A stretch of 20,000 nucleotides of DNA from an uncultured virus (IMG/VR IMGVR_UViG_3300008339_000030) (Duplodnaviria > Heunggongvirae > Uroviricota > Caudoviricetes), in the IMG/VR virus record IMGVR_UViG_3300008339_000030, positions 58,531-78,530 of that record, one strand, 5' to 3'. The number at the start of each line of letters is the position of its first letter. Position 1 is the first letter of the stretch. Below are positions 1 to 19,422 of the stretch, piece after piece. Made by a program: the position numbers and the translations under genes. The notes below the pieces were generated by a model that was not told the DNA's origin, ran no database searches, and saw only the letters and a program-made list of their open reading frames with translations.

Positions 1-1
1 C

Positions 2-1003: not shown

Positions 1004-1026
1004 AGTATTTTGAAGGTGTGTAAAGT

Positions 1027-1034
1027 TATAAATA
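1027..1034 (+). promoter_or_regulatory. T4-type late promoter TATAAATA upstream of gp18
   Basis: Exact gp55 consensus in the intergenic region; AGGAG RBS before the ATG at 1103. Confidence 0.88.
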
Positions 1035-1102
1035 TTATAAACCATAGTGTAATCACGCCCTGAAAATACTATTAAGATTTCAATCACTAACAGGAGAATA
1101 AA

Positions 1103-2776: not shown

Positions 2777-2784
2777 ACTAAATA
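2777..2784 (+). promoter_or_regulatory. Late promoter variant ACTAAATA upstream of gp19
   Basis: TAAATA core directly after the gp18 stop, followed by AGGAG and the ATG at 2806. Confidence 0.6.
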
Positions 2785-2805
2785 ACTTCTAGGAGATAGA
2801 AACAA

Positions 2806-3321
2806 ATGGATATTACCCAATTTAGAAACAAGTTAGGCGCAGGTGGTGCTCGTCCAAATCAATTTTTGGTAACACTTACTTGGCCTGCAGCAGTAGGAGT
2901 AGCCGCTTCTGATGACTCATTACTTGTCACAGCCGCTGCACTCCCTGCATCAAACGTTAACCCAACAATCGTTCAATATCGTGGTCGTGAAGTAAAGATG
3001 GCAGGAGAACGCATCTTTGATCCATGGACAATCACAGTTATCAACGATACATCTTTGAAGATGCGTCAATACTTCGAACGCTGGACAAACTTAATGAACG
3101 ACCGTGTAAACAACGGTGGTCAATTAACCCCTGCGTTGTATCAATGTGATTTACGTGTACAACAATTGGATAGAAATGATGTTACACTTCGTACATATGA
3201 AATTCGTAACGCATTCCCAATTAACGTTTCAGAAATTGCATTAGCATACAGTCAAAATGATGTCATTTCAGAATTCACAGTGACTTTCCAATATTCGCAT
3301 TTTGACGTAACACCTGTTTAA
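2806..3321 (+). CDS. gp19: Tail tube protein
   Basis: GGARPNQF, YRGREVKMAGERIFDPWTITVIND, AFPINVSEI and EFTVTF motifs; lies between sheath and portal. Confidence 0.96.
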   Translation: MDITQFRNKLGAGGARPNQFLVTLTWPAAVGVAASDDSLLVTAAALPASNVNPTIVQYRGREVKMAGERIFDPWTITVINDTSLKMRQYFERWTNLMNDRVNNGGQLTPALYQCDLRVQQLDRNDVTLRTYEIRNAFPINVSEIALAYSQNDVISEFTVTFQYSHFDVTPV

Positions 3322-3343
3322 TCTTTGACAAGGTAAAAATATT

Positions 3344-4927
3344 ATGGATATTTTTGGATATAGCATCAAGCGGAAGGAGCCCGCACGAACTGAAATTAGT
3401 TTCGTGCCTCCTTCCGACGATGGTGCTCTCGACACTGTCCGGGCAGGTGGGTACTACGGTACCTACCTCGACCTGGATAATGCAGCAAAAAATGAATCAG
3501 ATTTAATTCAACGCTATCGTGCCATTTCTTTAATGGCGGATGTTGATAGTGCCATTGATGATATCGTCAATGAATCCATTGCCAATATTGAAGATGAGGA
3601 TCCTATTGAAATTGATTTAGATGATGTAAAGGCTCCAGCATCAATCAAGAAAGCCATCAAGGAAGAATTTGCAAACATCACACAAATTCTTGACTTTAAA
3701 CATCGAGCACAAGATTATTTTCGTCGCTGGTATGTAGATGGTCGTGTGTATTTTCACAAAGTTGTAGACGTAGCAAAACCCAAACAAGGGTTAACTGATA
3801 TTCGTTATATTGATCCAAGAAAAATCAAGAAAATCAGAAACGTCATTAAAGAAACTGAAAAAAATACAGGTGTAGAACTTGTACGTAAGGTGGAAGAATT
3901 TTTCGTATATAATGAAAAGGGTGTATTAACTACACCTGTGACACAAGCAAGTCCAAGTGCCACACAAGGATTGAAAATAACCAAAGACGCCATTTGTTAT
4001 GTCCCATCAGGTTTAGTTGATGTAGATAATAACATGGTGTTGAGCTATTTACATAAAGCCATCAAAACAGCAAACCAATTGCGTATGATGGAAAATGCTC
4101 TTGTCATCTATCGTTTAGCAAGAGCGCCCGAAAGAAGAATTTTCTATATTGATGTAGGTAACCTTCCCAAGTTGAAGGCTGAACAATACATCAAGGACAT
4201 CATGAATCGTTATCGCAACAAGTTGGTGTATGATGCCAACACAGGCGAGATTCGTGATGATAAAAAGACTATGAGCTTGTTGGAAGATTTCTGGTTGCCT
4301 CGTCGTGAAGGAGGTAAGGGTACTGAAATTGATACTCTACCTGGTGGTCAAAACCTCGGTGAAATTGCCGACATTGAATACTTCCAACGTAAGTTGTATG
4401 AAAGTTTATATGTTCCTGTTTCTCGTTTGCAACAACAATCAGGATTGAACTTTGGTCGTGCCGCTGAAATTAATCGTGATGAATTGAAGTTCACAAAATT
4501 CATCAATAAATTGCGCCGTCAATTTTCACGTATGTTTGATGACCTGTTGAAAACACAACTTGTGTTAAAAGGTGTCACAACTGAAACTGATTGGGAAGAA
4601 ATGAAGGAAGATATCAAGTATAAGTTTGCTCAAGATGCCTATTATTCTGAAAGCAAAGACCAAGAATTGTTGCGGGCTCGCGTTGAATTACTATCACAAC
4701 TTGCAGAATTTGATGGTAAATATATAAGTAAGAGTTACATTCAAAAGCATGTGTTGCGTTTAACTGATGAAGAAATTGCACAAATGAATTCAGAAAACGA
4801 AGAAGCTGCTTCAGCAGGAATGGATTACTCTGAACCCCTTGAAGACCCAAATCAGCCCGGCAACATATTACCTAAGGGATCTCCTTTCCCCGCCCCACCG
4901 GAGAAGAAAAAGAATGGAACTACATGA
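3344..4927 (+). CDS. gp20: Portal vertex protein
   Basis: FRRWYVDGR, YIDPRKI, LSYLHKAIK..NQLRMMENALVIYRLARAPERRIFYIDVGNLPK and EDFWLPRREGGKGTEIDTLPGGQNLG, all hallmark T4-like gp20 sequences. Confidence 0.98.
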   Translation: MDIFGYSIKRKEPARTEISFVPPSDDGALDTVRAGGYYGTYLDLDNAAKNESDLIQRYRAISLMADVDSAIDDIVNESIANIEDEDPIEIDLDDVKAPASIKKAIKEEFANITQILDFKHRAQDYFRRWYVDGRVYFHKVVDVAKPKQGLTDIRYIDPRKIKKIRNVIKETEKNTGVELVRKVEEFFVYNEKGVLTTPVTQASPSATQGLKITKDAICYVPSGLVDVDNNMVLSYLHKAIKTANQLRMMENALVIYRLARAPERRIFYIDVGNLPKLKAEQYIKDIMNRYRNKLVYDANTGEIRDDKKTMSLLEDFWLPRREGGKGTEIDTLPGGQNLGEIADIEYFQRKLYESLYVPVSRLQQQSGLNFGRAAEINRDELKFTKFINKLRRQFSRMFDDLLKTQLVLKGVTTETDWEEMKEDIKYKFAQDAYYSESKDQELLRARVELLSQLAEFDGKYISKSYIQKHVLRLTDEEIAQMNSENEEAASAGMDYSEPLEDPNQPGNILPKGSPFPAPPEKKKNGTT

Positions 4928-6101
4928 GGTTAAGATAGGCGATACCGTTTCTTTCACCCATAAAGGAAAGAAAGTTACAGGTAGAGTAATACATCGTCAC
5001 GACGGAAATAAGAATTCTGCCCTTGCGGGTCATGTGAATATTCAGCCATCAAATGCAGATTCTAATCCCCATACCATACATGTGTCTAAATTAAAACCTG
5101 CTACACAAATAAAAGAGGATATTCAGATGGCAGATATTAACGAACAAATTTTAGATTTAATTGATAACATTGAAGCAGGCAATCATCTAGAAGCCAATAA
5201 CATCTTCAACGAATTATTACAATCAAAAATTGATGCTTTGCTTGATGCAAAGAAAAATGAAGTTTCTTCATCAATGTTCAACACAGAAGAATGTGCTGAA
5301 TGTATGGAAGAAGAAAAGAAAATGAAGAAGGAAAAGAAAGAAGATGAGGATGACGATGAAGAAGATGACTACGAAGATGAAGATGAAAGAATGGATGAAG
5401 CTTTAATTGGTGGTCAAAAGAAAATTGATGTCAACAAGAATGGTAAATTAGATGCCATGGACTTCAAGATGCTTCGTGCCAAGAAGAAGGGCATGAAGGA
5501 AGAAGTGAAATCAACTTCAGAAGCATATTCAGATCCATATGCTGCCAAGAAGGCGGCTGAAATGAAGAAGTCATATAGTAAGACTATGGCAGATGCCAAG
5601 AAGGAATATGAAGCTGCCAAGAAGCCAAAGTTTGCCAAGAACTTCATGAAGATGAAGAACGAAGAAGTGAAGCCCATTGATGAATGGAAATCTGCAACGC
5701 TCGGTTCGTATATCAAAAAGGCAGCAGATTCATATGCAGGTGAAGCTCAGTCTGGTACATACCAAAAGGTAGACAAGCGAGAAAGAGGAATTGCAAATGC
5801 TACAAACAAGCTTGTTAAGCGTGCAAAGGCTAATGAAGAAGTGGAATCCATTGATGAAATTTCTTCTGAAACTTTGAAGTCGTATCAACGAAAGTCCATG
5901 GATCAAGGCACCAGAGTGTTGAAGAAGCAAGAAGCACCTTTGTCAGCAAAAAAATTTGCCAAGCGCGTGAAGGGTATGGCCCGTTCCTCACAAATATTAG
6001 ACAAGCGTGAACCTCCCAAAAAACTTTATAGAGGTGACAACAAGGGTGGATATCCAAAACAATGGGATGAAAGTACAAAGTTCACCGTTGAAAAGGATTA
6101 A
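4914..6101 (+). CDS. Modular prohead core / internal head protein containing a gp67-like segment (alternative start at 5127)
   Basis: ATG at 4914 with GGAG at 4900-4903; a second ATG at 5127 with GAGG at 5115-5118 begins a helical segment (MADINEQILDLIDNI...LLQSKIDALLDAKKNEVSSSMF) resembling the small core protein found after gp20. The rest is E/D/K-rich with repeats. Occupies the T4 gp67 position. Confidence 0.65.
   Translation: MELHEVKIGDTVSFTHKGKKVTGRVIHRHDGNKNSALAGHVNIQPSNADSNPHTIHVSKLKPATQIKEDIQMADINEQILDLIDNIEAGNHLEANNIFNELLQSKIDALLDAKKNEVSSSMFNTEECAECMEEEKKMKKEKKEDEDDDEEDDYEDEDERMDEALIGGQKKIDVNKNGKLDAMDFKMLRAKKKGMKEEVKSTSEAYSDPYAAKKAAEMKKSYSKTMADAKKEYEAAKKPKFAKNFMKMKNEEVKPIDEWKSATLGSYIKKAADSYAGEAQSGTYQKVDKRERGIANATNKLVKRAKANEEVESIDEISSETLKSYQRKSMDQGTRVLKKQEAPLSAKKFAKRVKGMARSSQILDKREPPKKLYRGDNKGGYPKQWDESTKFTVEKD
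5658..5894 (+). repeat. Two imperfect 21-codon repeats (5658-5720 and 5832-5894), NEEVxxIDExxSxTLxSYxxK
   Basis: NEEVKPIDEWKSATLGSYIKK versus NEEVESIDEISSETLKSYQRK; also visible in the DNA (gaagaagtg...ccattgatgaa...tcgtat). Confidence 0.8.
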
Positions 6102-6103
6102 TC

Positions 6104-6454
6104 ATGGCAAAGATGAGCGAAAAGGATATGGCTCAACGAGAAAAGATTGTGAAGTCCATGAAGAAAAACTTCAAAGATTTTCGCAAACGTTACGGTGCCA
6201 ATGCAAAAAATGTAATGTATGCCACAGCCACTAAAATGGCAATGAAGGAAGAAACATCCGAAGAAAGAGGTGAATATGATTATGAAGGTGATATGGCAAA
6301 ATCTTCATTGAAAACAATTATTCGTAATGCACAAGAAATGCATGATATGTTATCTGAAGATACCAATCTTCCTGAATGGGTTCAAGGCAAAATTACCTTA
6401 GCAGAAGATTATATTGTATCGGCTGCACAATATATGCAATCAGAATCGGAGTAA
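6104..6454 (+). CDS. Hypothetical protein, probably head-internal (basic N-terminal module plus acidic helical module)
   Basis: AAGGA RBS and tight packing in the head operon; basic REKIVKSMKK...RYG...VMYATATKMA followed by DYEGDMAK...LPEWVQGKITLAEDYI. Confidence 0.7.
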   Translation: MAKMSEKDMAQREKIVKSMKKNFKDFRKRYGANAKNVMYATATKMAMKEETSEERGEYDYEGDMAKSSLKTIIRNAQEMHDMLSEDTNLPEWVQGKITLAEDYIVSAAQYMQSESE

Positions 6455-6457
6455 CAA

Positions 6458-6832
6458 ATGGCCATATCAATACTTAAAAAGACACCCATACATGTTGTAG
6501 TTGCCATTACAGGCGCAAATGCATCTGAAACCATTGATTTAGAAACAACACTAGAAACTACAACACAGAATGCCGCAACACCTAAGGCAAATATTAGTGG
6601 CATCTATTGGTCAATACCTTCAGGTAACGGAACCGTTTCAAGAAATTCTGTACAACTTTGGGCTATGACAGGTGCACGTGATTTTCAATTTCACGGATTT
6701 TCTGATAACAGAGAAAATGGTAGTAACATAGTTGTGACATTACCCGCAGGTGGTGGTACCATTATTCTTGAAATCATGAAGGTCTCAGGATATGGTGATA
6801 CACAACATCTTAATCAATCAATAGGAGCATAA
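6458..6832 (+). CDS. Hypothetical beta-rich protein directly upstream of the prohead protease (probably structural)
   Basis: GGAG RBS; 2-3 nt gaps to both neighbours; T/S/G/I-rich composition. No function recognised. Confidence 0.7.
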   Translation: MAISILKKTPIHVVVAITGANASETIDLETTLETTTQNAATPKANISGIYWSIPSGNGTVSRNSVQLWAMTGARDFQFHGFSDNRENGSNIVVTLPAGGGTIILEIMKVSGYGDTQHLNQSIGA

Positions 6833-6834
6833 TC

Positions 6835-7485
6835 ATGAGACTCATTGCTGAAATAGTTGAAGATGTTCAAATCATCAACGAAGAAAATTCAAAAAATCTT
6901 TTCATTGAAGGTGTGTTTCTTCAAAGTGAAATTGCCAATAAAAATTCACGTATCTATCCCAAGACAGTTATGGAACGCGAAGTAAAGCGTTACATGAAGG
7001 AATATGTCGAAGCCAATCGCGCATTTGGTGAACTGGGACATCCTGAAGGTCCAACCATCAATCTTGACCGTGTCTCTCACATGATTGTGTCATTGAAGGA
7101 AGATGGAAACAATTATGTTGGTCGTGCAAAAATCATGAACACCCCAATGGGTAATATTGCACGTAACATCATTGAAGGTGGTGGTAAGTTGGGTGTGTCG
7201 TCACGCGGATTGGGTTCATTAAAAACCACTTCAGAAGGTATCAACGAAGTTCAAGATGATTTCTATCTTGCAACGGCGGCTGACATTGTGGCTGACCCTT
7301 CGGCACCTGATGCTTTCGTACAAGGGATTATGGAAAATAAGGATTGGATGTTTGTAAATGGTTCATGGACATATCAAAATATGGATGAAACTAAGAAGCT
7401 GATTGAAAAGACCAATCAACGTCAATTGCAAGAAATGAAGATTCGTGCCTTTGAAACCTTCTTAAATGCCATTTCAAAGAAATAA
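6835..7485 (+). CDS. gp21: Prohead core protease
   Basis: LFIEGVFLQSE..NKNSRIYP, AFGELGHP (catalytic His), GVSSRGLGS (catalytic Ser) and DIVADPSAPDAFV. Confidence 0.97.
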   Translation: MRLIAEIVEDVQIINEENSKNLFIEGVFLQSEIANKNSRIYPKTVMEREVKRYMKEYVEANRAFGELGHPEGPTINLDRVSHMIVSLKEDGNNYVGRAKIMNTPMGNIARNIIEGGGKLGVSSRGLGSLKTTSEGINEVQDDFYLATAADIVADPSAPDAFVQGIMENKDWMFVNGSWTYQNMDETKKLIEKTNQRQLQEMKIRAFETFLNAISKK

Positions 7486-7490
7486 ACTCG

Positions 7491-7498
7491 TATAAATA
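7491..7498 (+). promoter_or_regulatory. T4-type late promoter TATAAATA upstream of gp22
   Basis: Exact consensus, intergenic; AGGAG before the ATG at 7535. Confidence 0.88.
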
Positions 7499-7534
7499 AT
7501 ATAAAGTTTTTGAAACAACTACAGGAGATACTAA

Positions 7535-8818
7535 ATGTCAGTAGAAAACAAGATTCGAGAAATGATGGCTAAAAAGCTCGATGAAGCCTTCCCAGGAATG
7601 GGTAAGAATTTGGAAACTAAGGCTCCAGCTCAAGGCTCATCACAAACACCAGAAGTTCAAATGATGCACAAGGGCGGTGGCGCAGAAAAGCCATCAAACC
7701 CTGTAAATCAATTACAAGCAGGCGCAGGCCCCAAAGAAGCTGCTCCCATGAAGCAAGGTTCATCACAAGATGCTTCAATTGATTTAGAAACTGATGAAAA
7801 GAATCAAGGTAAGGCACAAGCATCAAAGAAGGCTAAGATGCCTACTGTTTCACATCAAGGTGCAGGCGCTGCCACTAACTACACAACAGTAGCAGATCCA
7901 TCATCTGTCATCAACCAAGCATCTTCAAAGGGCAATGTTCACCAAGAAGAAGCTGAAGTAGAAGGCGAAGAAGTCATTTCAGAAGAAGAATACAATGCTC
8001 TTTCAGAAGAAGAAAAGGCACAATATTCATTAGTAGAAGAAGGCCCAGAAGAAACTGAAGAAGAAGATGAAACAGCACTTGCCGAAGCCATGGAAAACAT
8101 GAAGGCTGAATTGGCAAAGGATGTTGAAAATCTTTTTGCATCAGAAGTTGACTTGTCAGAAGAATTCAAGACAAAGGCAGCTTCATTATTCGAAGCCGTC
8201 GTAACTGCTCGCGTTGCTCACGAAGTAGAAAAGATGCAAGATGCGCTTGCTGAACAAGCAGCACACACCGTCGTGAACATCCACGAAGAAATGGTTTCAA
8301 AGATTGATGCCTATCTCTCATATGTTGCTGAACAATGGTTGGCAAACAATGAAGTTGCAATTGAAACAGGACTTCGTGCAGAAGTCACTGAAGATTTCAT
8401 TGCAGGCTTGAAGGTGTTGTTCAAGGAACACTACATTGAAGTTCCTGAAGAAAAGTACGATGTTTTAGGCGACATGCAAAATCAAATTGATACATTAACT
8501 GCACAAGTTAACGAATCATTGGCAAAGGCAGTTGAACTTAATACAGAGTTGAACGAAGCAAAGCGTGAAGTTGTATTCTCAAAGGCAACAAGTGACTTAG
8601 CACAAACTGAAGCTGAAAAACTTCGCGGCTTGATTGAAGAAGTTGAATTTGAAAATGAAGAATTATTTGAACAAAAGATTTCAGTTATTAAAAATAACTA
8701 CTTCCCCAAGTCAACTGTTTCTTCACCCATCACAGAAGAAGTGGTAGAAACACAAGAAGTATCAGGTACGGTTGCTAAATATGCAGAAATGCTTTCACGC
8801 AACACATTTGGAAAATAA
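7535..8818 (+). CDS. gp22: Prohead core scaffold protein with a long low-complexity N-terminal extension
   Basis: LSEEFKTKAASLFEAVV, KIDAYLSYVAEQW, FIAGLKVLFKEHYIEVPEEK and IKNNYF; lies between gp21 and gp23; acidic and coiled-coil-like. Confidence 0.93.
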   Translation: MSVENKIREMMAKKLDEAFPGMGKNLETKAPAQGSSQTPEVQMMHKGGGAEKPSNPVNQLQAGAGPKEAAPMKQGSSQDASIDLETDEKNQGKAQASKKAKMPTVSHQGAGAATNYTTVADPSSVINQASSKGNVHQEEAEVEGEEVISEEEYNALSEEEKAQYSLVEEGPEETEEEDETALAEAMENMKAELAKDVENLFASEVDLSEEFKTKAASLFEAVVTARVAHEVEKMQDALAEQAAHTVVNIHEEMVSKIDAYLSYVAEQWLANNEVAIETGLRAEVTEDFIAGLKVLFKEHYIEVPEEKYDVLGDMQNQIDTLTAQVNESLAKAVELNTELNEAKREVVFSKATSDLAQTEAEKLRGLIEEVEFENEELFEQKISVIKNNYFPKSTVSSPITEEVVETQEVSGTVAKYAEMLSRNTFGK

Positions 8819-8824
8819 AGCTAG

Positions 8825-8832
8825 TATAAATA
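8825..8832 (+). promoter_or_regulatory. T4-type late promoter TATAAATA upstream of gp23
   Basis: Exact consensus, intergenic; AGGAG before the ATG at 8875. Confidence 0.9.
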
Positions 8833-8874
8833 ATAGTAACGTTTAACAGTAAACAAAAACTCAGGAGAACGTAA

Positions 8875-10167
8875 ATGTTTTTATCAGAATCATTACAAAA
8901 GAAGTGGGCTCCAGTTCTAGAACACGGATCCCTACCAGCCATCAAAGACAACTACAAGAAGGCTGTTACTGCCGTTATTCTTGAAAACCAAGAAAAGGCA
9001 TTGCGCGAAGAAAAGCAAGCATTGTTCGAAGCTGTTCCAGTTAACAACATTGCTGGCTCAGGATCAACCGAAATTGACCGTTACGACCCAATCTTAATTT
9101 CATTGGTTCGTCGTTCACTTCCAAACTTGATGGCCTATGACGTAGCCGGCGTACAACCAATGACTGGTCCAACTGGCCTCATCTTCGCCATGAAGTCACG
9201 TTATTCAACCCAAGATGGTGCAGAAGCATTATTCAATGAAGCTGATACCGACTTCTCAGGCACAGGCACACACGAAGGTACAAACCCAGTTGATGGCACA
9301 TACACATACGGCACAGGCTTAACAACAGCAGCAGCTGAAGCTCTAGGCACAGGCGGTATGGCTGGTGACTTCAACGAAATGGCTTTCAGTATCGAAAAGA
9401 CAACTGTAACAGCCAAGTCACGTGCATTGAAGGCCGAATACACAGTTGAATTAGCACAAGACTTGAAGGCAATTCACGGTCTTGATGCAGAAAGTGAATT
9501 ATCAAACATTCTTTCACAAGAAATTCTTGCTGAAATGAACCGTGAAGTAATTCGTACTATCTACAAGGTTGCTAAGCCAGGTGCTGCTTCAACAGCAACA
9601 GCAGGTACATTCGACCTTGACGTTGACTCAAACGGTCGTTGGTCAGTAGAACGCTTCAAGGGCTTGATGTTCCAAATCGAACGCGATGCAAACGTAATCG
9701 CACAAGAAACTCGTCGTGGACGCGGTAACTTCATCGTCTGTTCATCAGACGTTGCAGCAGCTCTTGCCATGACAGGTAAGTTGGATTACACACCTGCTCT
9801 TTCAGGCAACGACGGCATCTCAATGGATGACACAGGCAACACATTCGCAGGTACATTGAATGGTCGCTTCAAGGTGTTCATTGATCCATACTCAGCCAAC
9901 ACAAACTCAGCTTCACAATTCGTAGTAGTTGGTTATAAGGGTTCAAATGCATATGACGCAGGTATCTTCTACTGCCCATACGTTCCATTACAAATGGTAC
10001 GTGCCATTGACCCATCTTCATTCCAACCCAAGATTGGATTCAAGACACGTTACGGCATGATTGCAAATCCATTCGTAACACAAGCCAACGGTACAACTGA
10101 CGGCGATACATTCACCGCTAACCGTAATCACTACTATCGTCGCTTGAAGGTCACAAACCTTCTATAA
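8875..10167 (+). CDS. gp23: Major capsid protein
   Basis: KKWAPVL, ILENQE, DPILISLVRR, GVQPMTGPTGLIFAM, AKSRALKAEYTVELAQDLKAIHGLDAE, FYCPYVPL and FQPKIGFKTRYG. Confidence 0.99.
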   Translation: MFLSESLQKKWAPVLEHGSLPAIKDNYKKAVTAVILENQEKALREEKQALFEAVPVNNIAGSGSTEIDRYDPILISLVRRSLPNLMAYDVAGVQPMTGPTGLIFAMKSRYSTQDGAEALFNEADTDFSGTGTHEGTNPVDGTYTYGTGLTTAAAEALGTGGMAGDFNEMAFSIEKTTVTAKSRALKAEYTVELAQDLKAIHGLDAESELSNILSQEILAEMNREVIRTIYKVAKPGAASTATAGTFDLDVDSNGRWSVERFKGLMFQIERDANVIAQETRRGRGNFIVCSSDVAAALAMTGKLDYTPALSGNDGISMDDTGNTFAGTLNGRFKVFIDPYSANTNSASQFVVVGYKGSNAYDAGIFYCPYVPLQMVRAIDPSSFQPKIGFKTRYGMIANPFVTQANGTTDGDTFTANRNHYYRRLKVTNLL

Positions 10168-14014: not shown

Positions 14015-14043
14015 GTTATATAACTTTGTGATTGGAGTGTGAT

Positions 14044-14949
14044 ATGCGTATTCGTTACTCAGAAATTTTTTATTCATTTCAAGGTGAAGCTGAATTGGCA
14101 GGAACGCCTGCCGTTTGGTTACGTTTCTTTGGTTGTAATTTAAATTGTAGTGGATTCGGACAAAAGAATCCCACAGACCCATCTACATATGAATTACCAT
14201 TCGAAACATTCGATGTGGATTCTGTGAAGCATGTCAATGACCTTCCCGTGTGGAAGTTTGGGTGTGACTCATCCTATTCTTGGTCACAACGTTTCAAGCA
14301 TCTAGCGCACGATGCATCTCCCGAAGAAATTGCTGACCGTTTAGTTGAAGCCAACAAGAGCGAGCATAACCCACAAGGATTGTTCATTCATCCTGTAACA
14401 CAACAACCCATCATGCTATGCTTCACGGGCGGCGAACCCATGATGCAACAAAAGGCAATGATGGAAATTCTTCGTGTGTTGCGTGACAGAAATAATGCAC
14501 CACAACTTGTCACGGTGGAAACAAATGCCACACGCCCCTTGTCAGAAGAATTAAGAAAATTCATGTCATTTGAATTCCCATTCATGGGAAATGGTAAGGC
14601 GCGTTGGCATTGGTCAATGAGTCCAAAATTGTTCACGGTATCAGGTGAAGATAATGTGGTGAGTGCAGAACACATTCATGAATATTCACTTGCCAATGCT
14701 ACATCCATTTTGAAATTTGTGTGTAACGGGACAAAAGAAAATTGGGATGAACTTGACAATCACCTAAATAGAATTAGATTACTATGTGGGAGATACATGC
14801 CAGACGTATGGGTGATGCCTGTCGGCGCCACAAAGGATGCTCAAGAGGATCCGTATATTGGTGATTTGTGTATCGAAGCAATGAATCGTGGTTATAAAGT
14901 TGCCACACGAAATCATTGTTATGTCTTTGGCAACGTCATTGGGAGATAA
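14044..14949 (+). CDS. queE: 7-carboxy-7-deazaguanine synthase (radical SAM)
   Basis: EIFYSFQGE, G.PAVWLRFFGCNLNC...GCDS, FTGGEP, VETN and SMSPKL. Start placed at ATG 14044 because of the GGAG RBS. Confidence 0.93.
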   Translation: MRIRYSEIFYSFQGEAELAGTPAVWLRFFGCNLNCSGFGQKNPTDPSTYELPFETFDVDSVKHVNDLPVWKFGCDSSYSWSQRFKHLAHDASPEEIADRLVEANKSEHNPQGLFIHPVTQQPIMLCFTGGEPMMQQKAMMEILRVLRDRNNAPQLVTVETNATRPLSEELRKFMSFEFPFMGNGKARWHWSMSPKLFTVSGEDNVVSAEHIHEYSLANATSILKFVCNGTKENWDELDNHLNRIRLLCGRYMPDVWVMPVGATKDAQEDPYIGDLCIEAMNRGYKVATRNHCYVFGNVIGR

Positions 14950-14950
14950 T

Positions 14951-15652
14951 ATGAAGTCACAACATCGTTTTAACGCATCAGCTATTCGTTCTGCCATGGG
15001 CAAGACTGATCCTGAATTGGGATTACAGGTACATAAGCATCTTGTTGCTCAGGGTGTAGAGACACCTTTCATGCAGACGGAAGAATATAGTGACAAGAAG
15101 ATTAAGAAGATTGAAAAACATTTCACTGAAATCATGACAACTCTAGGTATGGATTTGACTGATGACAGTCTCCAAGATAGTCCTAAGCGTGTTGCCAAGA
15201 TGTTTGTGAATGAACTATTTTGGGGATTAGATTATGCAGCATTTCCGAAGTGTACTGCCATTGAGAATAAGATGGGGTATGATGAGATGGTTCTTGAAAA
15301 GAACATCACGGTGACTTCGGCATGTGAACATCACTTTGTCACTATTTCAGGTGTGGCACATGTTGCCTACATCCCGAAAAATAAGGTGTTGGGGTTGAGC
15401 AAGTTGAATCGTGTTGTTGAATATTTCTCACGCCGTCCTCAGGTTCAAGAGCGCCTTGCAGAACAAATTTATCATGCTCTGTCATTCATCCTTGACACGC
15501 CTGATGTAGCGGTTGTTATTGACGCCGAACATTTCTGTGTAAAGGCACGAGGTGTTGAGGATCCACATTCCAATACAATCACATCGAAGTTGGGTGGCGG
15601 ATTCAAGGAGAATCCTGCCCTTCGTTCAGAATTCATGCATCTCATCAAGTAA
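14951..15652 (+). CDS. folE: GTP cyclohydrolase I
   Basis: DSPKRVAKM, SACEHHF, AYIP, GLSKLNR, RPQVQERL and H.C...RG (zinc ligands intact). Start at ATG 14951 after GGGAG. Confidence 0.97.
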   Translation: MKSQHRFNASAIRSAMGKTDPELGLQVHKHLVAQGVETPFMQTEEYSDKKIKKIEKHFTEIMTTLGMDLTDDSLQDSPKRVAKMFVNELFWGLDYAAFPKCTAIENKMGYDEMVLEKNITVTSACEHHFVTISGVAHVAYIPKNKVLGLSKLNRVVEYFSRRPQVQERLAEQIYHALSFILDTPDVAVVIDAEHFCVKARGVEDPHSNTITSKLGGGFKENPALRSEFMHLIK

Positions 15653-15656
15653 TATC

Positions 15657-16172
15657 ATGTCAAGTGATATCAATGTAATGATTGACTTGGAAACCATGAG
15701 TACCGAGTCAAACGCAGCAATCGCCTCTATTGGTGCGGTAAAATTTTCTATCGAAGCAGGTGTGATAGATACATTTTACTGCACGGTAGATGTGGCTGAC
15801 TGTAAATTACAGGGATTACACATTTCTGCTGATACTGTGAAATGGTGGAGTAAGCAACCCAAGGAAGTATTAGAAATGCTTCGTGAAAATAATGTATCTC
15901 TGCGCGAAGCTCTTACAAAGTTTTCTCAATGGTATGGAACAGTACAATATCCTACATGGGGTTGTGGTTCTGATTTTGATAATGTCATTATGGAAAATGC
16001 CTATAAGGCAGTAAGTATGGTACGTCCTTGGAACGCCTGGAGAAACAGGTGCTATCGCACAATACGCGAAGTAATTAAATTACCAGAAGCTGAACGAACA
16101 GGCACATATCACAATGCACTTGATGATGCGTTACATCAGACACATCATCTACTTAAAATCTTTGGGAGCTAA
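15657..16172 (+). CDS. DEDDh 3'-5' exonuclease (DnaQ-like; DexA/Rv2179c-like)
   Basis: ExoI MIDLET, T..WW..Q, ExoII WGCGSDFD, RCYRT and ExoIII HNALDDA..Q. Start at ATG 15657. Confidence 0.88.
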   Translation: MSSDINVMIDLETMSTESNAAIASIGAVKFSIEAGVIDTFYCTVDVADCKLQGLHISADTVKWWSKQPKEVLEMLRENNVSLREALTKFSQWYGTVQYPTWGCGSDFDNVIMENAYKAVSMVRPWNAWRNRCYRTIREVIKLPEAERTGTYHNALDDALHQTHHLLKIFGS

Positions 16173-16174
16173 TA

Positions 16175-17434
16175 ATGTTTGAATATGTTGCTTCTGGGTT
16201 ATCCTTTCTGCGTTGCAACTTTAAGGATACACATACAGGATATCTATTGGGTGAATTGAATAAAATGTGGGGACATATTCGTGGTAAATATGACCACGAA
16301 TTTTCATTCCTGTATAACGCCTATATTGAAAAGCATTTCGGTGAGGTGTTTTATGGTGCCTATCGTGGTAAAGGTATTAATCAGGTGTATGCCGACTCGG
16401 GCGGTCTACAAATTGTCACACAAGGATTGACCATCACGCCGGCATTAAAACAGAAGGTGTACGAGAGTCAAGCCATGTACTCTGATTGCGCCATGAGTTT
16501 TGATGAAATTCCTGTGAGCATTATTGGCACAAAGGCGGTACGTTCAGATATTAACAGTAAATATTTTGATAGAAATAAATTTGAATGGTGTGCGCGTGAA
16601 TCAGGCAGAAATGTGAAGAACCAAATTGACACATTCATCGCCATGAAATCTGATGCCAAGCCCATGTTCATTGTACAAGGCGGTGACCTTGACACATACA
16701 TCAAATGGTGTGAGTTGGCACTGGAAGAAATTCCTAAGGAATATCATGAACGCATTGGCGGTGTCGCCATGGGTTCAGGTGGTATCGGTAACGGGATGTT
16801 TGAAGATTGTAAGCGAGCATTTTATTACACACAAACACCCTTGTTTGAAATGAACAATCATCTCCATTTGTTAGGTATTGGTGCAGTATCACGTATGGTA
16901 CCTACATTGGCAATGATTGAAAGTGGCTTATACACAAACAAACATATTAGTTATGATAGTACGACCCATACATCGGGTGTACAAATGGGAAGATACTATG
17001 GTCCTGATTTCTCTTGGATTACTCCCGGCAAACACTTCATCAATGAAAATGGTCCTCAGTATTCCATTATCAATGCCGACATCAAGAAAAATGTTCCGTT
17101 CTATGATGTAACAGATGAAGTATTCCATGAGGTCATGAACATCAGTGTTCGAAAGTATCAGGCAAAAACAAATGATCCTAATCCGCCCATTCTTGCATTT
17201 AACGCATACTTCACTTCATCAGTCATTAACTTTCTACGTCACTTAGATACCATGAGAAAGGATTTTTCACAGATTCATACATTGATGAGTGACGATGAAT
17301 ACAATGCCATGATGGCGTTTAGTCGAGTTAAAAACAGAGTGGATTTTGAAAAGTGGGAAAATGAAATGGGACGATATCTCCCAAGTCAAGCTGTTCGTGA
17401 TGGCATACCTGCAACATTACCTGAGGACTTTTAA
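16175..17434 (+). CDS. dpdA: DNA 7-deazaguanine transglycosylase (TGT-fold, DpdA family)
   Basis: TGT-barrel motifs YADSGGLQ, SFDEIP, FIVQG, GVAMG, HLHLLGIG and SYDSTT. It lacks the C-terminal CxCxxC zinc site of tRNA Tgt and is clustered with folE/queD/queE in a phage. Confidence 0.85.
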   Translation: MFEYVASGLSFLRCNFKDTHTGYLLGELNKMWGHIRGKYDHEFSFLYNAYIEKHFGEVFYGAYRGKGINQVYADSGGLQIVTQGLTITPALKQKVYESQAMYSDCAMSFDEIPVSIIGTKAVRSDINSKYFDRNKFEWCARESGRNVKNQIDTFIAMKSDAKPMFIVQGGDLDTYIKWCELALEEIPKEYHERIGGVAMGSGGIGNGMFEDCKRAFYYTQTPLFEMNNHLHLLGIGAVSRMVPTLAMIESGLYTNKHISYDSTTHTSGVQMGRYYGPDFSWITPGKHFINENGPQYSIINADIKKNVPFYDVTDEVFHEVMNISVRKYQAKTNDPNPPILAFNAYFTSSVINFLRHLDTMRKDFSQIHTLMSDDEYNAMMAFSRVKNRVDFEKWENEMGRYLPSQAVRDGIPATLPEDF

Positions 17435-17436
17435 TC

Positions 17437-17808
17437 ATGATAAAGCGTTACATTGAAGTGACATTTCAGAAAGAAGGTATTCACAAATATCCCGCAGCAT
17501 TGACTGACCCGAAATTGAAAGATGTAGAATTTTTAGGATATCCTCATAGACACATGTTTCATTTCCGTGTTCGTGTATCGGTGACACATAATGACCGAGA
17601 CATTGAATTCATCTTATTCAAGCGTGAACTTGAACATCTATATCAAGGCACGTTGCATGTTGATTATAAGAGCTGTGAAATGTTGGCAGAAGATTTAATA
17701 GAGTACATTACTAATGTTTATCCGGGCAGAGAAGTTGAAGTAGGTGTGAGTGAAGATGGTGAGAACGGTGCAATCATTCAATATCAACCAATGGGGAGTT
17801 TGACATGA
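17437..17808 (+). CDS. dpdL: QueD-like T-fold protein, probable CDG decarboxylase DpdL
   Basis: 123 aa with EGIH, LGYPHRHMF (LxxxHRHxF in place of QueD CxxxHGH), DRDIEF, SCEMLA and V.VSEDGENG; directly downstream of dpdA. The DpdL motif is recalled from the literature, not searched. Confidence 0.75.
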   Translation: MIKRYIEVTFQKEGIHKYPAALTDPKLKDVEFLGYPHRHMFHFRVRVSVTHNDRDIEFILFKRELEHLYQGTLHVDYKSCEMLAEDLIEYITNVYPGREVEVGVSEDGENGAIIQYQPMGSLT

Positions 17809-18968
17809 AGATTTTCTATATGGGATTGGAATCATATGAATCACGATATACATTGCAACTAACTAAGTGGGCAACTACCACTATGGATCGTCGTGGTGTT
17901 GAATATGTGATTGTTCCCGGCAAGACCATTGATAACAGTCAGGCAATTTCTGTGGGACAGGTTCTTGATGCACATGGAAGAAGTTATTTCGCTATGTCAC
18001 AAATGATGAATCTTGTGCAGATGATGAAAGATGGGACAGTCACCGGTGAAGATGCCATCTTTTTTGAAGATATGTTTCAACCCGGCATTGAATCGCTTCC
18101 TTACATCATGAATCAAATCCCTGAAAAGGATCGACCGAAGGTGTGGGTACGTTGTCTTGCACAAAGCATTGATCCTGATGACTTTGTTCATGTGTGGGGT
18201 ATGGCACCTTGGATGAGTAAGTATGAACACATGGTGAATGATTTTGTTACGGGTGTTCTTGCGTCAAATGAAGAAATGGTGGCACATATGAAGATTGCAG
18301 GTTGGACAGCACCTCTCTACAACATTTCAGGCTTGACGTTTGACCGTGATGAGGTGAGAAGTCGAGTATCGCATATTCCAGAATTCTCATCTAGAAAGAT
18401 GCGTGTTGTATTTGCTGCTCGGTTTGACCAAGAAAAGCAACCCAACTTCTTCATGGATATTGCTGAACAAGTTGCAGAAACATATAACATTGAATTTGCC
18501 ATAGTATCGGGCGGTCCATTACGGAGTAACAATCCGGTATATTTGGAACGTGCTCGTAAATTAGAAAAGAGTGGTCTTTTAAAGATTTATGATAATCTTT
18601 CTAAGAATGAGTATTATGAGATTGTTGCCAATAGTCGTGTATTGTTTAATTGTGCATTACAAGATTGGGTAAGTAACACGGTGTCTGAGGCAGATGCACT
18701 TGAATGTAATGTGTTGTATCCTGCCTATCGGTCATTCCCAGAAACGTTTGCCAATGATGCTGAACGTTTATATGTACCTTGGTCACAACAAGATGCCATT
18801 AACAAGTTGTTCAGGCACTTGAATGAACCTCATAGAAACATGGGAAAGATTTCAGCTTGGACATCACAGACAATGGATAGAATTCTAGATGTGATGTTGG
18901 GTCAAGGTGAAGCATGGCGCCGGGATGATAATCGTTATCGTGACTACACTTCTACAAACAAATACTGA
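17805..18968 (+). CDS. GT-B fold glycosyltransferase (GT4-like)
   Basis: 387 aa with a two-domain layout; VVFAARFDQEKQP (R-x4-K donor binding), LSKNEYYE, QDWVSNTVSEA (D-x7-E variant of E-x7-E) and VLYP.YRSFPE. ATGA overlap with dpdL. Confidence 0.85.
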   Translation: MKIFYMGLESYESRYTLQLTKWATTTMDRRGVEYVIVPGKTIDNSQAISVGQVLDAHGRSYFAMSQMMNLVQMMKDGTVTGEDAIFFEDMFQPGIESLPYIMNQIPEKDRPKVWVRCLAQSIDPDDFVHVWGMAPWMSKYEHMVNDFVTGVLASNEEMVAHMKIAGWTAPLYNISGLTFDRDEVRSRVSHIPEFSSRKMRVVFAARFDQEKQPNFFMDIAEQVAETYNIEFAIVSGGPLRSNNPVYLERARKLEKSGLLKIYDNLSKNEYYEIVANSRVLFNCALQDWVSNTVSEADALECNVLYPAYRSFPETFANDAERLYVPWSQQDAINKLFRHLNEPHRNMGKISAWTSQTMDRILDVMLGQGEAWRRDDNRYRDYTSTNKY

Positions 18969-18978
18969 GGAGATGACA

Positions 18979-19422
18979 ATGAAATTCTATTCAACGAAAA
19001 CATTTGGTAATGAGCGTGGTTTGAGCTGTGCATTTCGTCAATGGCGAGCAAAATCACATTGCAATCAAATTCATGGTTATAGTTTAGGATTTCGTTTCAT
19101 CTTTGAGGCAGATGTCCTAGATGAAAGAAACTGGGTATATGACTTTGGTGATACCAAGTGGATTAAGGAATACTTAGATGTTGCCTTTGACCACACAACG
19201 GCAGTTGCCAAGGATGATCCTTTGCTTCCCTTGTTCAAACAAATGGATAAGGAAGGCGGATGCACATTGCGTATTTTTGATAGTGTTGGATGTGAAGCAT
19301 TTGCTCATATGGTATATGTTGACATTGCCCCCGGTGTTGTACACAAGACGAACGGGCGAGTTCGCCTTAAGAGTGTGGAAGTATTTGAACATGGGAGCAA
19401 CTCTGCCCTGTACGAGGGATAA
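18979..19422 (+). CDS. queD: 6-carboxy-5,6,7,8-tetrahydropterin synthase (QueD/PTPS family)
   Basis: HCNQIHGY, LDERNWVYDFG, FDH, GCEAFA and VEVFEH..NSA.Y; GAGGAG RBS at 18967-18972 favours ATG 18979 (18973 possible). Confidence 0.88.
   Translation: MKFYSTKTFGNERGLSCAFRQWRAKSHCNQIHGYSLGFRFIFEADVLDERNWVYDFGDTKWIKEYLDVAFDHTTAVAKDDPLLPLFKQMDKEGGCTLRIFDSVGCEAFAHMVYVDIAPGVVHKTNGRVRLKSVEVFEHGSNSALYEG

What the first reader, a model, noticed from the sequence alone, without database searches (positions are those of the whole stretch)
17437..18968. dpdL and the glycosyltransferase are translationally coupled (ATGA overlap) directly after dpdA
Seen: the dpdL stop overlaps the GT start at 17805-17808, and the GT carries D-x7-E instead of the GT4 E-x7-E. 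Established: T4-like DNA glycosyltransferases are GT-B enzymes that act on hydroxymethyl-pyrimidines, and no hydroxymethylase is present in this window. Inference: dDG has no C7 substituent to accept a sugar. So the GT may act on the CDG carboxylate, N2 or C7, or DpdL plus GT may form a two-step unit in which dDG is only an intermediate or breakdown product. Any of these would be new chemistry.
Basis: inference. Interest (0 to 1): 0.8.

Follow-up and report, generated by a model that had tools for sequence, protein, structure and literature searches.

The report
Sugar transferase wedded to phage deazaguanine genes
An uncultured T4-like phage keeps a sugar-transferring enzyme inside the gene set that replaces guanine in its DNA with 7-deazaguanine, and the same pairing recurs in hundreds of other phages, which points to a sugar-bearing purine in DNA that nobody has yet measured.

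Summary
The dpdL stop and the glycosyltransferase (GT) start share ATGA at 17805-17808. The GT has D287-x7-E295. A TGT-fold DpdA2 gene ends 2 nt before dpdL.

The overlap itself is ordinary. All seven junctions from queE to gp47 are -4 to +10 nt. Only 28 of 154 related loci with dpdL upstream of the GT overlap it.

What is not ordinary is the linkage:
- In 200 non-redundant GT loci (GT identity 28-85%, shuffled gene orders), dpdL lies on the same strand in 187. Ten of the 13 misses have cut flanks.
- 198 of 200 hold at least one deazaguanine gene.
- 89 of 200 have a nucleotide-sugar dehydratase/epimerase directly after the GT.
- Conversely, dpdL occurs without the GT. Cellulophaga phage phiST, the only lineage with measured DNA (pure dDG), is one such case.
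- Four of five complete GT-bearing phage genomes have no ThyA/hydroxymethylase-family gene, so hydroxymethyl-pyrimidines are not the acceptor there.

Best reading (0.6): a retaining GT4-like enzyme adds a sugar to the DpdL product, 7-deazaguanine, before or after DpdA inserts it. dDG would then be the aglycone, not the end product. The attachment site and the chemistry are inferred.

I found no paper describing this. This scan noted the same module earlier on other genomes. Mass spectrometry on cultured carriers (PA5oct, BUCT-ZZ01, Phosso) would settle it.

The parts
14032..14949 (+). queE (radical-SAM 7-carboxy-7-deazaguanine synthase)
   Evidence: phrog_2076 QueE-like, E 9.4e-48. N-terminal QueE NCBIfam matches.
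14951..15652 (+). folE (GTP cyclohydrolase I). The ORF is open from GTG 14888; ATG 14951 lies 1 nt after the queE stop.
   Evidence: PF01227, E 1.5e-62. Junction analysis.
15657..16172 (+). Rv2179c-like 3'-5' exonuclease sitting inside the cluster. The ORF is open from GTG 15552.
   Evidence: PF16473, E 2.7e-43. A homologue lies next to the GT in BUCT-ZZ01.
16175..17434 (+). dpdA of the DpdA2 type (guanine transglycosylase that inserts the deazaguanine base into DNA). The DSGGLQ motif is at 16394-16411.
   Evidence: 29-33% identical over full length to the ACP17 and X1 proteins; Cui 2023 DS1 lists the ACP17 protein and the BUDD counterpart (not X1) as DpdA2. AF2 model pLDDT 84.6. All top 50 Foldseek PDB hits are TGTs, with bacterial DpdA 7ui4 at rank 12.
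17437..17808 (+). dpdL (QueD-like T-fold; proposed CDG decarboxylase). The LGYPHRHMF motif is at 17533-17559.
   Evidence: phrog_17812, E 5.7e-38. Motif. 38-64% identical to the DpdL of phiST, RHph_I1_18, PA5oct and ACP17.
17805..17808 (+). ATGA overlap of the dpdL stop and the GT start
17805..18968 (+). GT-B (GT4-like) glycosyltransferase of a phage-restricted family with its own conserved N-terminal acceptor domain
   Evidence: AF2 pLDDT 95.9. VIA-align Z 26.9-21 to retaining GT-B enzymes. Pfam Glycos_transf_1 scores 23.5 bits, below the 26.4 cut-off. 783 representatives at 50% identity.
18663..18689 (+). D287-x7-E295, standing where GT4 enzymes carry E-x7-E
18979..19422 (+). queD (6-carboxytetrahydropterin synthase)
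   Evidence: PF01242, E 1.4e-16. phrog_2389, E 3.9e-36.

Best explanation
The GT is a working part of a DpdL-type 7-deazaguanine DNA-modification pathway.

Proposed steps:
1. FolE, QueD and QueE make 7-carboxy-7-deazaguanine (CDG) from GTP. This is established pathway knowledge.
2. DpdL removes the carboxyl group to give 7-deazaguanine (DG). Cui et al. 2023 proposed this; it has not been shown in vitro.
3. The GT, a retaining GT4-like enzyme with a family-specific acidic and aromatic acceptor domain, transfers a sugar from a nucleotide sugar onto the DG moiety. This step is inferred.
4. DpdA2 exchanges guanine in phage DNA for the base.

This contig has no sugar-nucleotide genes, so a host UDP-hexose would be the donor here. 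Many relatives carry their own dehydratase and aminotransferase, which would supply a modified sugar.

I cannot decide whether glycosylation comes before insertion (on the free base; slight lean, about 55:45) or after it (on dDG in DNA). C7, which faces the major groove, is the most plausible attachment site. In GT-bearing phages dDG would then be the aglycone rather than the final base. The sugar would add protection against restriction and other DNA-sensing defences.
For: Linkage:
- 241 GT loci were gathered, of which 200 are non-redundant. dpdL lies on the same strand as the GT in 187 of them: 154 upstream and 33 downstream.
- Of the 13 misses, 10 have a flank under 1.2 kb.
- 198 of 200 hold at least one of dpdL, queD, queE, folE or dpdA.
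- Gene order differs between the window, BUCT-ZZ01, X1, ACP17 and BCSR5, yet the GT stays beside dpdA and dpdL.
- The GT travels with both DpdA2 and DpdA3.

Sugar supply:
- An NAD-dependent nucleotide-sugar epimerase/dehydratase sits directly downstream of the GT in 89 of 200 loci.
- A DegT-type aminotransferase is present in 39 and a cytidylyltransferase-like gene in 25.

Nesting:
- The GT profile is absent from phiST, RHph_I1_18, Ahp1, D479, Bakedbeans and MA9V-3, which all have dpdL. Positive controls were found in the parallel search.
- Of 75 non-redundant dpdL loci, 64 have the GT.
- On a DpdL tree the GT state needs at least 6 changes.
- phiST DNA is fully dDG without any GT.

The enzyme looks active:
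- R206, E210, K211 and D287...E295 are conserved, and the model is a confident GT-B fold.

No hydroxymethyl-pyrimidine route:
- PF00303 is found in only 1 of 5 complete GT-bearing genomes.

A cultured carrier has an unidentified modified G:
- PA5oct DNA resists G-containing restriction sites. In the passages I read of PMC12191111, the modification was not identified by mass spectrometry.
Against: - No chemistry has been measured anywhere; the product is inferred from gene context alone.
- DG offers no ordinary hydroxyl. C-glycosylation by a retaining GT4-type enzyme has no precedent that I know of (recalled).
- Three loci with at least 4 kb on both sides have the GT without a recognisable dpdL (L149, L159, L221). 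One of them (L221) has no deazaguanine gene within about 8 kb.
- The loci are related by descent, so the counts are not independent events.
- The window's contig, 68 kb upstream, encodes a small QueC-like PP-loop protein. The precursor pool may therefore not stop at CDG.
- The GT family is acidic (median pI 5.5). That sits poorly with direct DNA binding, although the DpdA families are acidic too.
- The Pfam GT score is below the curated cut-off.
Confidence: 0.6

Rival explanations
1. The GT acts on the carboxylate of CDG or dCDG and forms an acyl-glycoside (sugar ester). DpdL would then be an accessory, or dDG would arise by later loss of the ester.
For: CDG is the only pathway intermediate with an obvious oxygen nucleophile (pathway knowledge). 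DpdL's decarboxylase activity was never shown: ACP17 and phiST dpdL plus dpdA gave no dDG in E. coli.
Against: If CDG were the acceptor, the GT should also occur in dpdL-less CDG phages. It is tied to dpdL in 187 of 200 loci. phiST makes dDG at full replacement without the GT. The conserved acceptor-domain residues are mostly acidic (E9, D55, D89, D123, D126, E141), which suits an anionic substrate poorly (inference).
Confidence: 0.12
2. The GT glycosylates a pterin intermediate (from FolE plus a T-fold enzyme), as cyanobacterial tetrahydrobiopterin glucosyltransferase does. The product would be a soluble pterin glycoside rather than a DNA base.
For: BGluT (5zer/5ze7) is among the structural neighbours, Z 23.6 at rank 9. 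T-fold proteins bind pterins (Cui 2023 text). FolE is present in 147 of 200 loci.
Against: BGluT is no closer than a dozen other GT4 enzymes. The strongest partner is dpdL (187), not folE (147) or queD (116). queE and dpdA are not needed for a pterin glycoside, yet queE is present in 121 of 200 loci and dpdA in 125 of 200. The carriers include hosts not known for pterin glycosides (recalled).
Confidence: 0.07
3. The GT has a target unrelated to deazaguanine (hydroxymethyl-pyrimidine DNA as in T4, a phage protein, or host surface glycans), and its position is a matter of operon packing.
For: T4 alpha-GT is a structural neighbour, Z 21.7. The contig has other GTs near the tail-fibre genes.
Against: The linkage to dpdL survives down to 23-28% GT identity and through shuffled gene orders. 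No ThyA/hydroxymethylase-family gene is found in 4 of 5 complete carriers, nor in this contig. The nearest clusters in the protein atlas are viral only.
Confidence: 0.05
4. The protein keeps the GT-B fold but transfers no sugar. It would serve as a scaffold or specificity factor for DpdA or DpdL.
For: The first acid of the GT4 E-x7-E motif is replaced by D. The Pfam score is below cut-off.
Against: The donor-site residues R206, E210, K211 and E295 are invariant or nearly so. Nucleotide-sugar tailoring genes directly follow the GT in 89 of 200 loci, and these only make sense if a sugar is transferred.
Confidence: 0.05

Closest known systems
DpdL/DpdA 2'-deoxy-7-deazaguanine (dDG) system of Cellulophaga phage phiST (Cui, Hutinet et al., NAR 2023, PMC10516641)
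   Same: It has FolE, QueD, QueE, a DpdL with the LxxxHRHxF motif and a DpdA transglycosylase, with no canonical QueC. The window's DpdL is 38% identical to phiST's.
   Different: phiST has DpdA3 and no GT. The window has DpdA2 plus the GT. The paper lists ACP17, BUDD and BCSR5 as DpdL/DpdA2 phages but never mentions the GT that lies between those genes: 'glycosyl' occurs 0 times in the main text and once in the supplement, in a chemical synthesis.
T4 alpha- and beta-glucosyltransferases (glucosyl-hmC DNA)
   Same: These are phage-encoded GT-B enzymes that decorate a non-canonical DNA base for counter-defence. T4 alpha-GT (1y6f) aligns at Z 21.7.
   Different: Their acceptor is the hydroxyl of 5-hydroxymethylcytosine. 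The hydroxymethylase family is absent here and in 4 of 5 complete carriers. GT4-type enzymes with small-molecule acceptors are closer in structure.
Deazapurine-glycosylating GTs of secondary metabolism (HuiG of huimycin; dapiramicin pathway)
   Same: Here a GT transfers a sugar onto a nitrogen of a free 7-deazapurine made by the same FolE/QueD/QueE route (bioRxiv 10.64898/2026.04.15.718813, passages only).
   Different: Those clusters lack dpdA and sit in actinomycete genomes. Their products are soluble antibiotics, not DNA. No sequence relation was tested here.
UDP-glucose:tetrahydrobiopterin alpha-glucosyltransferase BGluT (PDB 5ze7/5zer)
   Same: It is a GT4-like fold acting on a bicyclic 2-amino-4-oxo heterocycle derived from GTP. 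Z 23.6.
   Different: It is no closer than other GT4 enzymes. The acceptor is a side-chain hydroxyl of a pterin, and there is no link to queE or dpdA.
Eukaryotic queuosine glycosyltransferases QTMAN/QTGAL (recalled, not tested)
   Same: They are sugar transferases acting on a 7-deazaguanine derivative already inside a nucleic acid.
   Different: Their acceptor is the cyclopentenediol hydroxyl of queuosine in tRNA. No Pfam match of the window's GT to any N-terminal-domain family, QTMAN's included, appeared at E<=0.01.

Membership tests
GT-B glycosyltransferase, GT4-like (retaining) clan | Two Rossmann-like domains with a cleft between them (GT-B fold) | tested here: met
   AF2 pLDDT 95.9, pTM 0.93. 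VIA-align Z 26.9 (sucrose-phosphate synthase), 26.2 (BshA) and 24.5 (PimA) over 311-340 residues. Foldseek probability 1.00.
GT-B glycosyltransferase, GT4-like (retaining) clan | Pfam Glycos_transf_1 (PF00534) match above the gathering score | tested here: not met
   23.5 bits against a cut-off of 26.4. PF13692 scores 23.2 against 27. Some homologues pass in the precomputed column.
GT-B glycosyltransferase, GT4-like (retaining) clan | E-x7-E motif in the C-terminal domain | tested here: not met
   The motif is D287-x7-E295, kept in at least 90% of 48 homologues. Its equivalence in position to the GT4 motif rests on spacing from R206/K211 and on secondary structure, compared with PimA numbering that I recalled.
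GT-B glycosyltransferase, GT4-like (retaining) clan | Conserved basic pair that binds the donor diphosphate | tested here: inconclusive
   R206 and K211 are invariant in 48 sequences. No donor-bound model was made.
DpdL (proposed CDG decarboxylase, Cui 2023) | LxxxHRHxF in place of the QueD motif CxxxHGH | tested here: met
   LGYPHRHMF at residues 33-41. L33, H37 and H39 are invariant in 40 homologues.
DpdL (proposed CDG decarboxylase, Cui 2023) | Homology to the phiST and ACP17 proteins named DpdL | tested here: met
   38% identical to phiST, 54% to ACP17 and 64% to RHph_I1_18. Accessions are listed in DS1.
DpdL (proposed CDG decarboxylase, Cui 2023) | Genome encodes FolE, QueD, QueE and DpdA but no QueC | tested here: inconclusive
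   FolE, QueD, QueE and DpdA are present. The contig is 44% complete and holds a 192-aa PP-loop protein with weak QueC likeness: Pfam 34.3 bits on the C-terminal part only, and the NCBIfam QueC equivalog at 21 against a cut-off of 150. QueC passes the cut-off in 0 of 5 complete GT-bearing relatives.
DpdL (proposed CDG decarboxylase, Cui 2023) | Decarboxylation of CDG to DG | not testable with these tools
   The published heterologous test was also negative.
DpdA (DNA guanine transglycosylase), DpdA2 subfamily | TGT TIM-barrel fold with the catalytic DSGG motif | tested here: met
   Model pLDDT 84.6. All top 50 Foldseek hits are TGTs, with DpdA 7ui4 at rank 12. D74-S-G-G77 is invariant.
DpdA (DNA guanine transglycosylase), DpdA2 subfamily | Closest to proteins classed as DpdA2 | tested here: met
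   E 2e-55 to ACP17 and 5e-58 to X1 over full length. ACP17, BUDD and BCSR5 are listed as DpdA2 in DS1. No tree of DpdA subfamilies was built.
T4-type DNA glucosyltransferase acting on hydroxymethyl-pyrimidine | A co-encoded dCMP/dUMP hydroxymethylase provides the acceptor | tested here: not met
   No PF00303 domain in 81 ORFs of the contig. None in BUCT-ZZ01, ACP17, X1 or BCSR5; one ThyA-family gene in PA5oct.

The most novel reading that the evidence does not exclude
The GT carries out a glycosylation with no precedent: a carbon-carbon (C-glycosidic) bond at C7 of 7-deazaguanine. This could be direct attack by the electron-rich pyrrole carbon, or capture of the C7 nucleophile released as DpdL decarboxylates CDG. 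Most DpdL phages in nature (64 of 75 sampled dpdL loci) would then carry a C7-glycosyl-7-deazaguanine in their DNA. That would be the first sugar-bearing purine in any genome, and dDG would be only the minority, sugar-less form.
Probability: 0.25. Interest if true: 0.9.

Novelty: new variant of a known kind. Interest (0 to 1): 0.72.

Why it matters
All known glycosylated DNA bases are pyrimidines (glucosyl-hmC, arabinosyl-hmC, base J). All known phage 7-deazaguanines carry small C7 groups or none. A sugar on a deazapurine would be a new class of DNA base. It would probably need new enzyme chemistry, and it would be a new obstacle to restriction enzymes, sequencing and DNA-sensing defences.

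The GT family is large: at least 7987 clusters at 90% identity (capped) and 783 representatives at 50%. It rides with most dpdL genes sampled. The published picture that DpdL phages end at dDG may therefore describe the exception.

The GT could also be the 'other unknown enzyme' that Cui et al. invoked when ACP17 dpdL plus dpdA failed in E. coli. The question can be tested directly, because cultured carriers exist (PA5oct, BUCT-ZZ01, Phosso, ACP17, X1/BUDD, BCSR5).

Tried and rejected
- **DpdL-GT complex prediction** (A1 + A6). No verdict: ipSAE 0.00 in two runs, controls not run. It says nothing either way about binding.
- **Fused forms.** The 'longer' search (679-2000 aa) found none at E<=1e-10 (weak evidence by the tool's own text). 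None of the best 150 representatives starts the GT match later than residue 58. The 655-aa P0156 has an unassigned C-terminal part with no match to neighbouring gene families.
- **Megablast** of 16175-19422 against phage records: no match.
- **Bacterial genomes.** The genome-contig scan with A1 failed because no stretch was conserved enough. The atlas neighbours are viral.
- **PDB by sequence.** Searches with DpdA and the DpdA3-like protein gave nothing useful. The fold search settled DpdA.
- **Global pI as a test of DNA versus small-molecule acceptor.** Not discriminating, since the DpdA families are acidic too.
- **'GT goes with DpdA2 only'.** My early idea from tblastn was rejected. The family profile finds the GT beside DpdA3 in PA5oct and in 107 loci.
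- **The small PP-loop protein as a conserved partner.** Rejected: no homologue near the GT in 241 loci.
- **Literature.**
  - Searches found no paper describing a glycosylated 7-deazaguanine in DNA or this GT.
  - Passages were read.
  - The 2024 MMBR review (PMC10966956) is not held.
  - bioRxiv supplements are closed. The Extended Data of PMC12191111 were not seen and might bear on the PA5oct base.
Full report
**What is in the window.** The window is the last 20 kb of a 78.5-kb uncultured viral contig that CheckV rates 44% complete. It comes from a T4-like phage.
- Bases 1-10167 encode the terminase C-terminal part, tail sheath, tail tube, portal, prohead protease, scaffold and major capsid protein.
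- These are followed by a second tail-tube-like gene, uvsY, uvsW and the gp55 late sigma factor.
- Then comes a tightly packed plus-strand block:
  - queE, 14032-14949
  - folE, 14951-15652
  - an Rv2179c-like exonuclease, 15657-16172
  - a 419-aa gene, 16175-17434
  - a 123-aa gene, 17437-17808
  - a 387-aa glycosyltransferase, 17805-18968
  - queD, 18979-19422
  - a gp47/SbcD-like gene from 19423

**The observation.**
- The 123-aa ORF ends with TGA at 17806-17808 and the GT starts with ATG at 17805, so ATGA is shared. A GGGGAG run lies just upstream.
- The GT has D287-x7-E295 (18663-18689).
- The 123-aa protein carries LGYPHRHMF. This matches the LxxxHRHxF signature by which Cui et al. 2023 set DpdL apart from QueD.
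- That protein is 38-64% identical to the proteins the paper lists as DpdL in phiST, ACP17, PA5oct and RHph_I1_18.
- The 419-aa protein is 29-33% identical over its full length to the ACP17 and X1 proteins; Cui's table classes the ACP17 protein and X1's relative BUDD as DpdA2.
- Its AlphaFold model (pLDDT 84.6) matches only tRNA-guanine transglycosylases among the top 50 PDB hits, including bacterial DpdA.

**Is the overlap meaningful?** Not on its own.
- Two of the 22 plus-strand junctions in the window are ATGA overlaps.
- All seven junctions from queE to gp47 lie between -4 and +10 nt. This is ordinary phage operon packing.
- In related phages the overlap is not conserved. Of 154 non-redundant loci with dpdL upstream of the GT, 28 overlap (9 by exactly 4 nt). 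The median gap is 226 nt, often filled by a 74-aa basic ORF.

**The GT family.**
- Pfam sees only a sub-threshold Glycos_transf_1 match (23.5 bits against 26.4). PHROGs and NCBIfam see nothing.
- The family is nevertheless large:
  - at least 7987 clusters at 90% identity (capped);
  - 783 representatives at 50% identity with E<=0.001;
  - the nearest protein-atlas clusters are viral.
- Homologues align from residue 1. They share a distinctive N-terminal domain with the motifs LExYxxRYT, VLDAxGR, DMFHPGxEALPY, AQSxDxxDFT and WMRxYE. The C-terminal motifs are SRxDxEKQP and FNCALQDWVSxTLLEA.
- The model is confident (pLDDT 95.9) and is a GT-B fold.
- The best structural neighbours are sucrose-phosphate synthase (Z 26.9), BshA (26.2), PimA (24.5), the pterin glucosyltransferase BGluT (23.6), LmbT (23.6) and SenB (22.2). 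T4 alpha-GT is lower at Z 21.7.
- From recalled CAZy knowledge these are retaining enzymes, many with small-molecule acceptors.
- The fold says 'sugar transferase' but does not name the acceptor.

- tblastn against 50,697 phage records found the GT in 6 records of 5 phages: BUCT-ZZ01, X1, BUDD, ACP17 and BCSR5. In the four I opened, it sits inside a folE/queD/queE/dpdA/dpdL cluster, with a different gene order each time.
- Five scans of IMG/VR gave 236 loci. Two of these scans used alignments headed by distant family members. With the window and the four cultured loci this makes 241 loci, of which 200 are non-redundant by GT DNA.
- I built iterative HMMs on the loci's ORFs and assigned each ORF to its best-scoring model, to keep DpdL and QueD apart.
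- Results in the 200 loci:
  - dpdL in 187, always on the GT's strand (154 upstream, 33 downstream);
  - folE in 147, queE in 121 and queD in 116;
  - a DpdA of either type in 125.
- Of the 13 loci without dpdL, eight have under 1.2 kb upstream of the GT and two have under 0.6 kb downstream.
- Three have at least 4 kb on both sides (L149, L159, L221). Two of these still carry queD, queE and folE.
- Only 2 of 200 loci show no deazaguanine gene at all.
- These loci share ancestry, so the counts are not independent events. But the linkage holds from 85% down to about 25% GT identity, and through rearrangements.

**Sugar-supply genes.** I clustered same-strand ORFs within 6 kb of the GT and ran Pfam on one example per family.
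- An NAD-dependent nucleotide-sugar epimerase/dehydratase lies directly downstream of the GT in 89 of 200 loci.
- A DegT-type aminotransferase is present in 39, a phosphoribosyltransferase in 33, a HIT protein in 25 and a cytidylyltransferase-like protein in 25.
- An unknown basic protein of about 303 aa lies directly downstream of the GT in 55.
- Some loci, and BUCT-ZZ01, have a second GT.
- Nucleotide-sugar tailoring genes woven into the cluster are hard to explain unless a sugar is transferred in this pathway.
- The window's own contig has no such gene, so a host nucleotide sugar would be used here.

**Which DpdA?**
- The roughly 512-aa protein found in 107 loci is a distant DpdA homologue. 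hhalign against the DpdA2 alignment gives E 2.7e-5 and shares the DSGGxQ, QG, HxLG and ISxD motifs.
- Its PA5oct counterpart, by position and size, is listed as DpdA3 by Cui et al..
- So the GT travels with both DpdA2 and DpdA3. Its constant partner is dpdL.

**The reverse direction.**
- dpdL occurs in 28 phage records.
- A whole-record search with the GT profile found the GT in BUCT-ZZ01, ACP17, Phosso and PA5oct. Single-sequence tblastn had missed the last two.
- It found none in phiST, RHph_I1_18, Ahp1, D479, Bakedbeans or MA9V-3.
- In Phosso the annotated dpdL and GT coordinates overlap by 4 nt, as in the window.
- A scan seeded with a DpdL alignment gave 75 non-redundant dpdL loci. Of these, 64 have the GT within 9 kb and 11 do not; three of the 11 have short flanks.
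- On a DpdL tree of 85 rows (short protein, weakly resolved), GT presence needs at least six changes, three of them forced by well-supported branches. GT-less Ahp1 is sister to GT-bearing PA5oct with SH-aLRT 97.
- The GT is therefore an add-on that is gained and lost within DpdL systems. It almost never exists outside them. That pattern is expected of an enzyme acting on the DpdL product.

**What the acceptor is not.**
- PF00303 (ThyA and dCMP/dUMP hydroxymethylases) is absent from BUCT-ZZ01, ACP17, X1 and BCSR5. It is present once in PA5oct.
- It is absent from all 81 ORFs scanned in this contig. Hydroxymethyl-pyrimidine is therefore not the acceptor.
- Canonical QueC passes its cut-off in none of the five complete carriers, so preQ0-derived bases are unlikely.
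- One caveat: 68 kb upstream of the cluster this contig has a 192-aa PP-loop protein with a QueC-like cysteine cluster. It is not conserved near the GT elsewhere.

**Mechanism.**
- Shown by homology: GTP goes to CDG through FolE, QueD and QueE, and a TGT-fold DpdA swaps bases in DNA.
- Proposed by others and still unproven: DpdL decarboxylates CDG to DG. In support, phiST DNA is fully dDG.
- Inferred here: the GT glycosylates the DG moiety.
- Evidence for action on the free base:
  - the closest tie is to dpdL, which Cui et al. model as acting on the base;
  - the conserved acceptor-domain residues are acidic and aromatic;
  - the closest folds have small-molecule acceptors.
- Evidence for action on DNA: the T4 analogy, and the fact that two DpdA subfamilies, both also used by GT-less phages, serve GT-bearing ones.
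- The site is unknown. DG has no hydroxyl. C7 faces the major groove and is the position TGT-family pockets tolerate. N2 glycosylation of free deazapurines has a precedent in huimycin, but it would clash with TGT recognition and with the minor groove (inference).

**Rivals.**
- A CDG sugar ester (0.12).
- A pterin glycoside (0.07).
- An unrelated target (0.05).
- A non-catalytic role (0.05).

**Novelty.**
- Cui et al. list ACP17, BUDD and BCSR5 as DpdL/DpdA2 phages. [quoted passage not shown] The GT between those genes is not mentioned.
- A 2025 preprint shows that PA5oct DNA resists G-containing restriction sites and infers a modified G. In the passages I read, it was not identified by mass spectrometry.
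- Eight literature searches found no description of a glycosylated 7-deazaguanine in DNA. The 2024 MMBR review could not be read.
- Within this scan, eight earlier notes on other genomes reached the same reading. I saw them after forming mine and re-derived the counts independently. They are not independent evidence.

**Verdict.**
The overlap is ordinary. The gene linkage is real and strong.
- The GT is a new, unrecognised component of a known kind of system. The product is probably a sugar-bearing 7-deazaguanine. It remains to be measured.

Noticed in passing
L006:8060-8638 (own contig C1:8060-8638, about 50 kb before the window): A 192-aa PP-loop ATPase with an SGGxDS motif and a QueC-like C-terminal cysteine cluster. 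Pfam QueC scores 34.3 bits on the C-terminal part only, and the NCBIfam QueC equivalog is far below cut-off. It could act on the CDG carboxylate, so 'QueC-less' is not fully safe for this phage.
   Followed up: partly
L006:1644-4387 (own contig): A twitch-domain radical SAM protein (NF033640, 224 bits) is followed by a NodU/Nol-like carbamoyltransferase (phrog_1601, E 1e-103). This may be a second nucleic-acid or sugar tailoring module.
   Followed up: no
L008:3778-5765 (own contig, tail-fibre region): An FkbM-type methyltransferase, a DXD sugar-binding GT and a GT2-like protein sit together among tail-fibre genes. This is a separate glycosylation set, probably for structural proteins.
   Followed up: no
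L033:9185-10706, L058:9194-10733, L013:9196-15757 and 89 of 200 loci: In jumbo-phage relatives the GT is followed directly by a nucleotide-sugar dehydratase/epimerase and a DegT aminotransferase. Other neighbours include HIT, cytidylyltransferase, phosphoribosyltransferase, GMP-reductase-like, methyltransferase and radical SAM/SPASM genes. This suggests more elaborate sugars and possibly nucleotide-level steps.
   Followed up: partly
L001:5004-6347 (BUCT-ZZ01) and L013:13563-14915: A second GT-B protein of about 450 aa lies in the same cluster (Glyco_trans_1_4/Glycos_transf_1, near or below cut-off). A disaccharide is possible.
   Followed up: no
L248:7212-8363 (Vibrio phage Bakedbeans) and L253:7431-8312 (Chryseobacterium phage MA9V-3): In two GT-less phages DpdL is the C-terminal part of a longer protein (383 and 293 aa), with an unassigned N-terminal domain.
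   Followed up: no
L247:5227-6849 (PA5oct) versus L252:8801-9580 (phiST) and L251:8426-9298 (Ahp1): The DpdA3 of GT-bearing phages is about 510-540 aa. The GT-less Ahp1 has one of 290 aa, and phiST's, going by gene position, is about 259 aa. The extra half may go with the GT.
   Followed up: no
L031:6976-7209 and 60 of 200 loci: A conserved 74-aa basic ORF (median pI 9.4) lies between dpdL and the GT in many relatives. It is absent from the window.
   Followed up: no
L149:7558-7995, L159:7537-7974, L221:7527-8000: In the few GT loci without dpdL, a 145-157-aa ORF of an unrelated family abuts or overlaps the GT start. Most other loci with that family also have dpdL (21 of 22).
   Followed up: partly
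window 15657-16172: An Rv2179c-like 3'-5' exonuclease sits between folE and dpdA, and a homologue flanks the GT in BUCT-ZZ01 (L001:9162-9686). Its role in the cluster is unknown.
   Followed up: no
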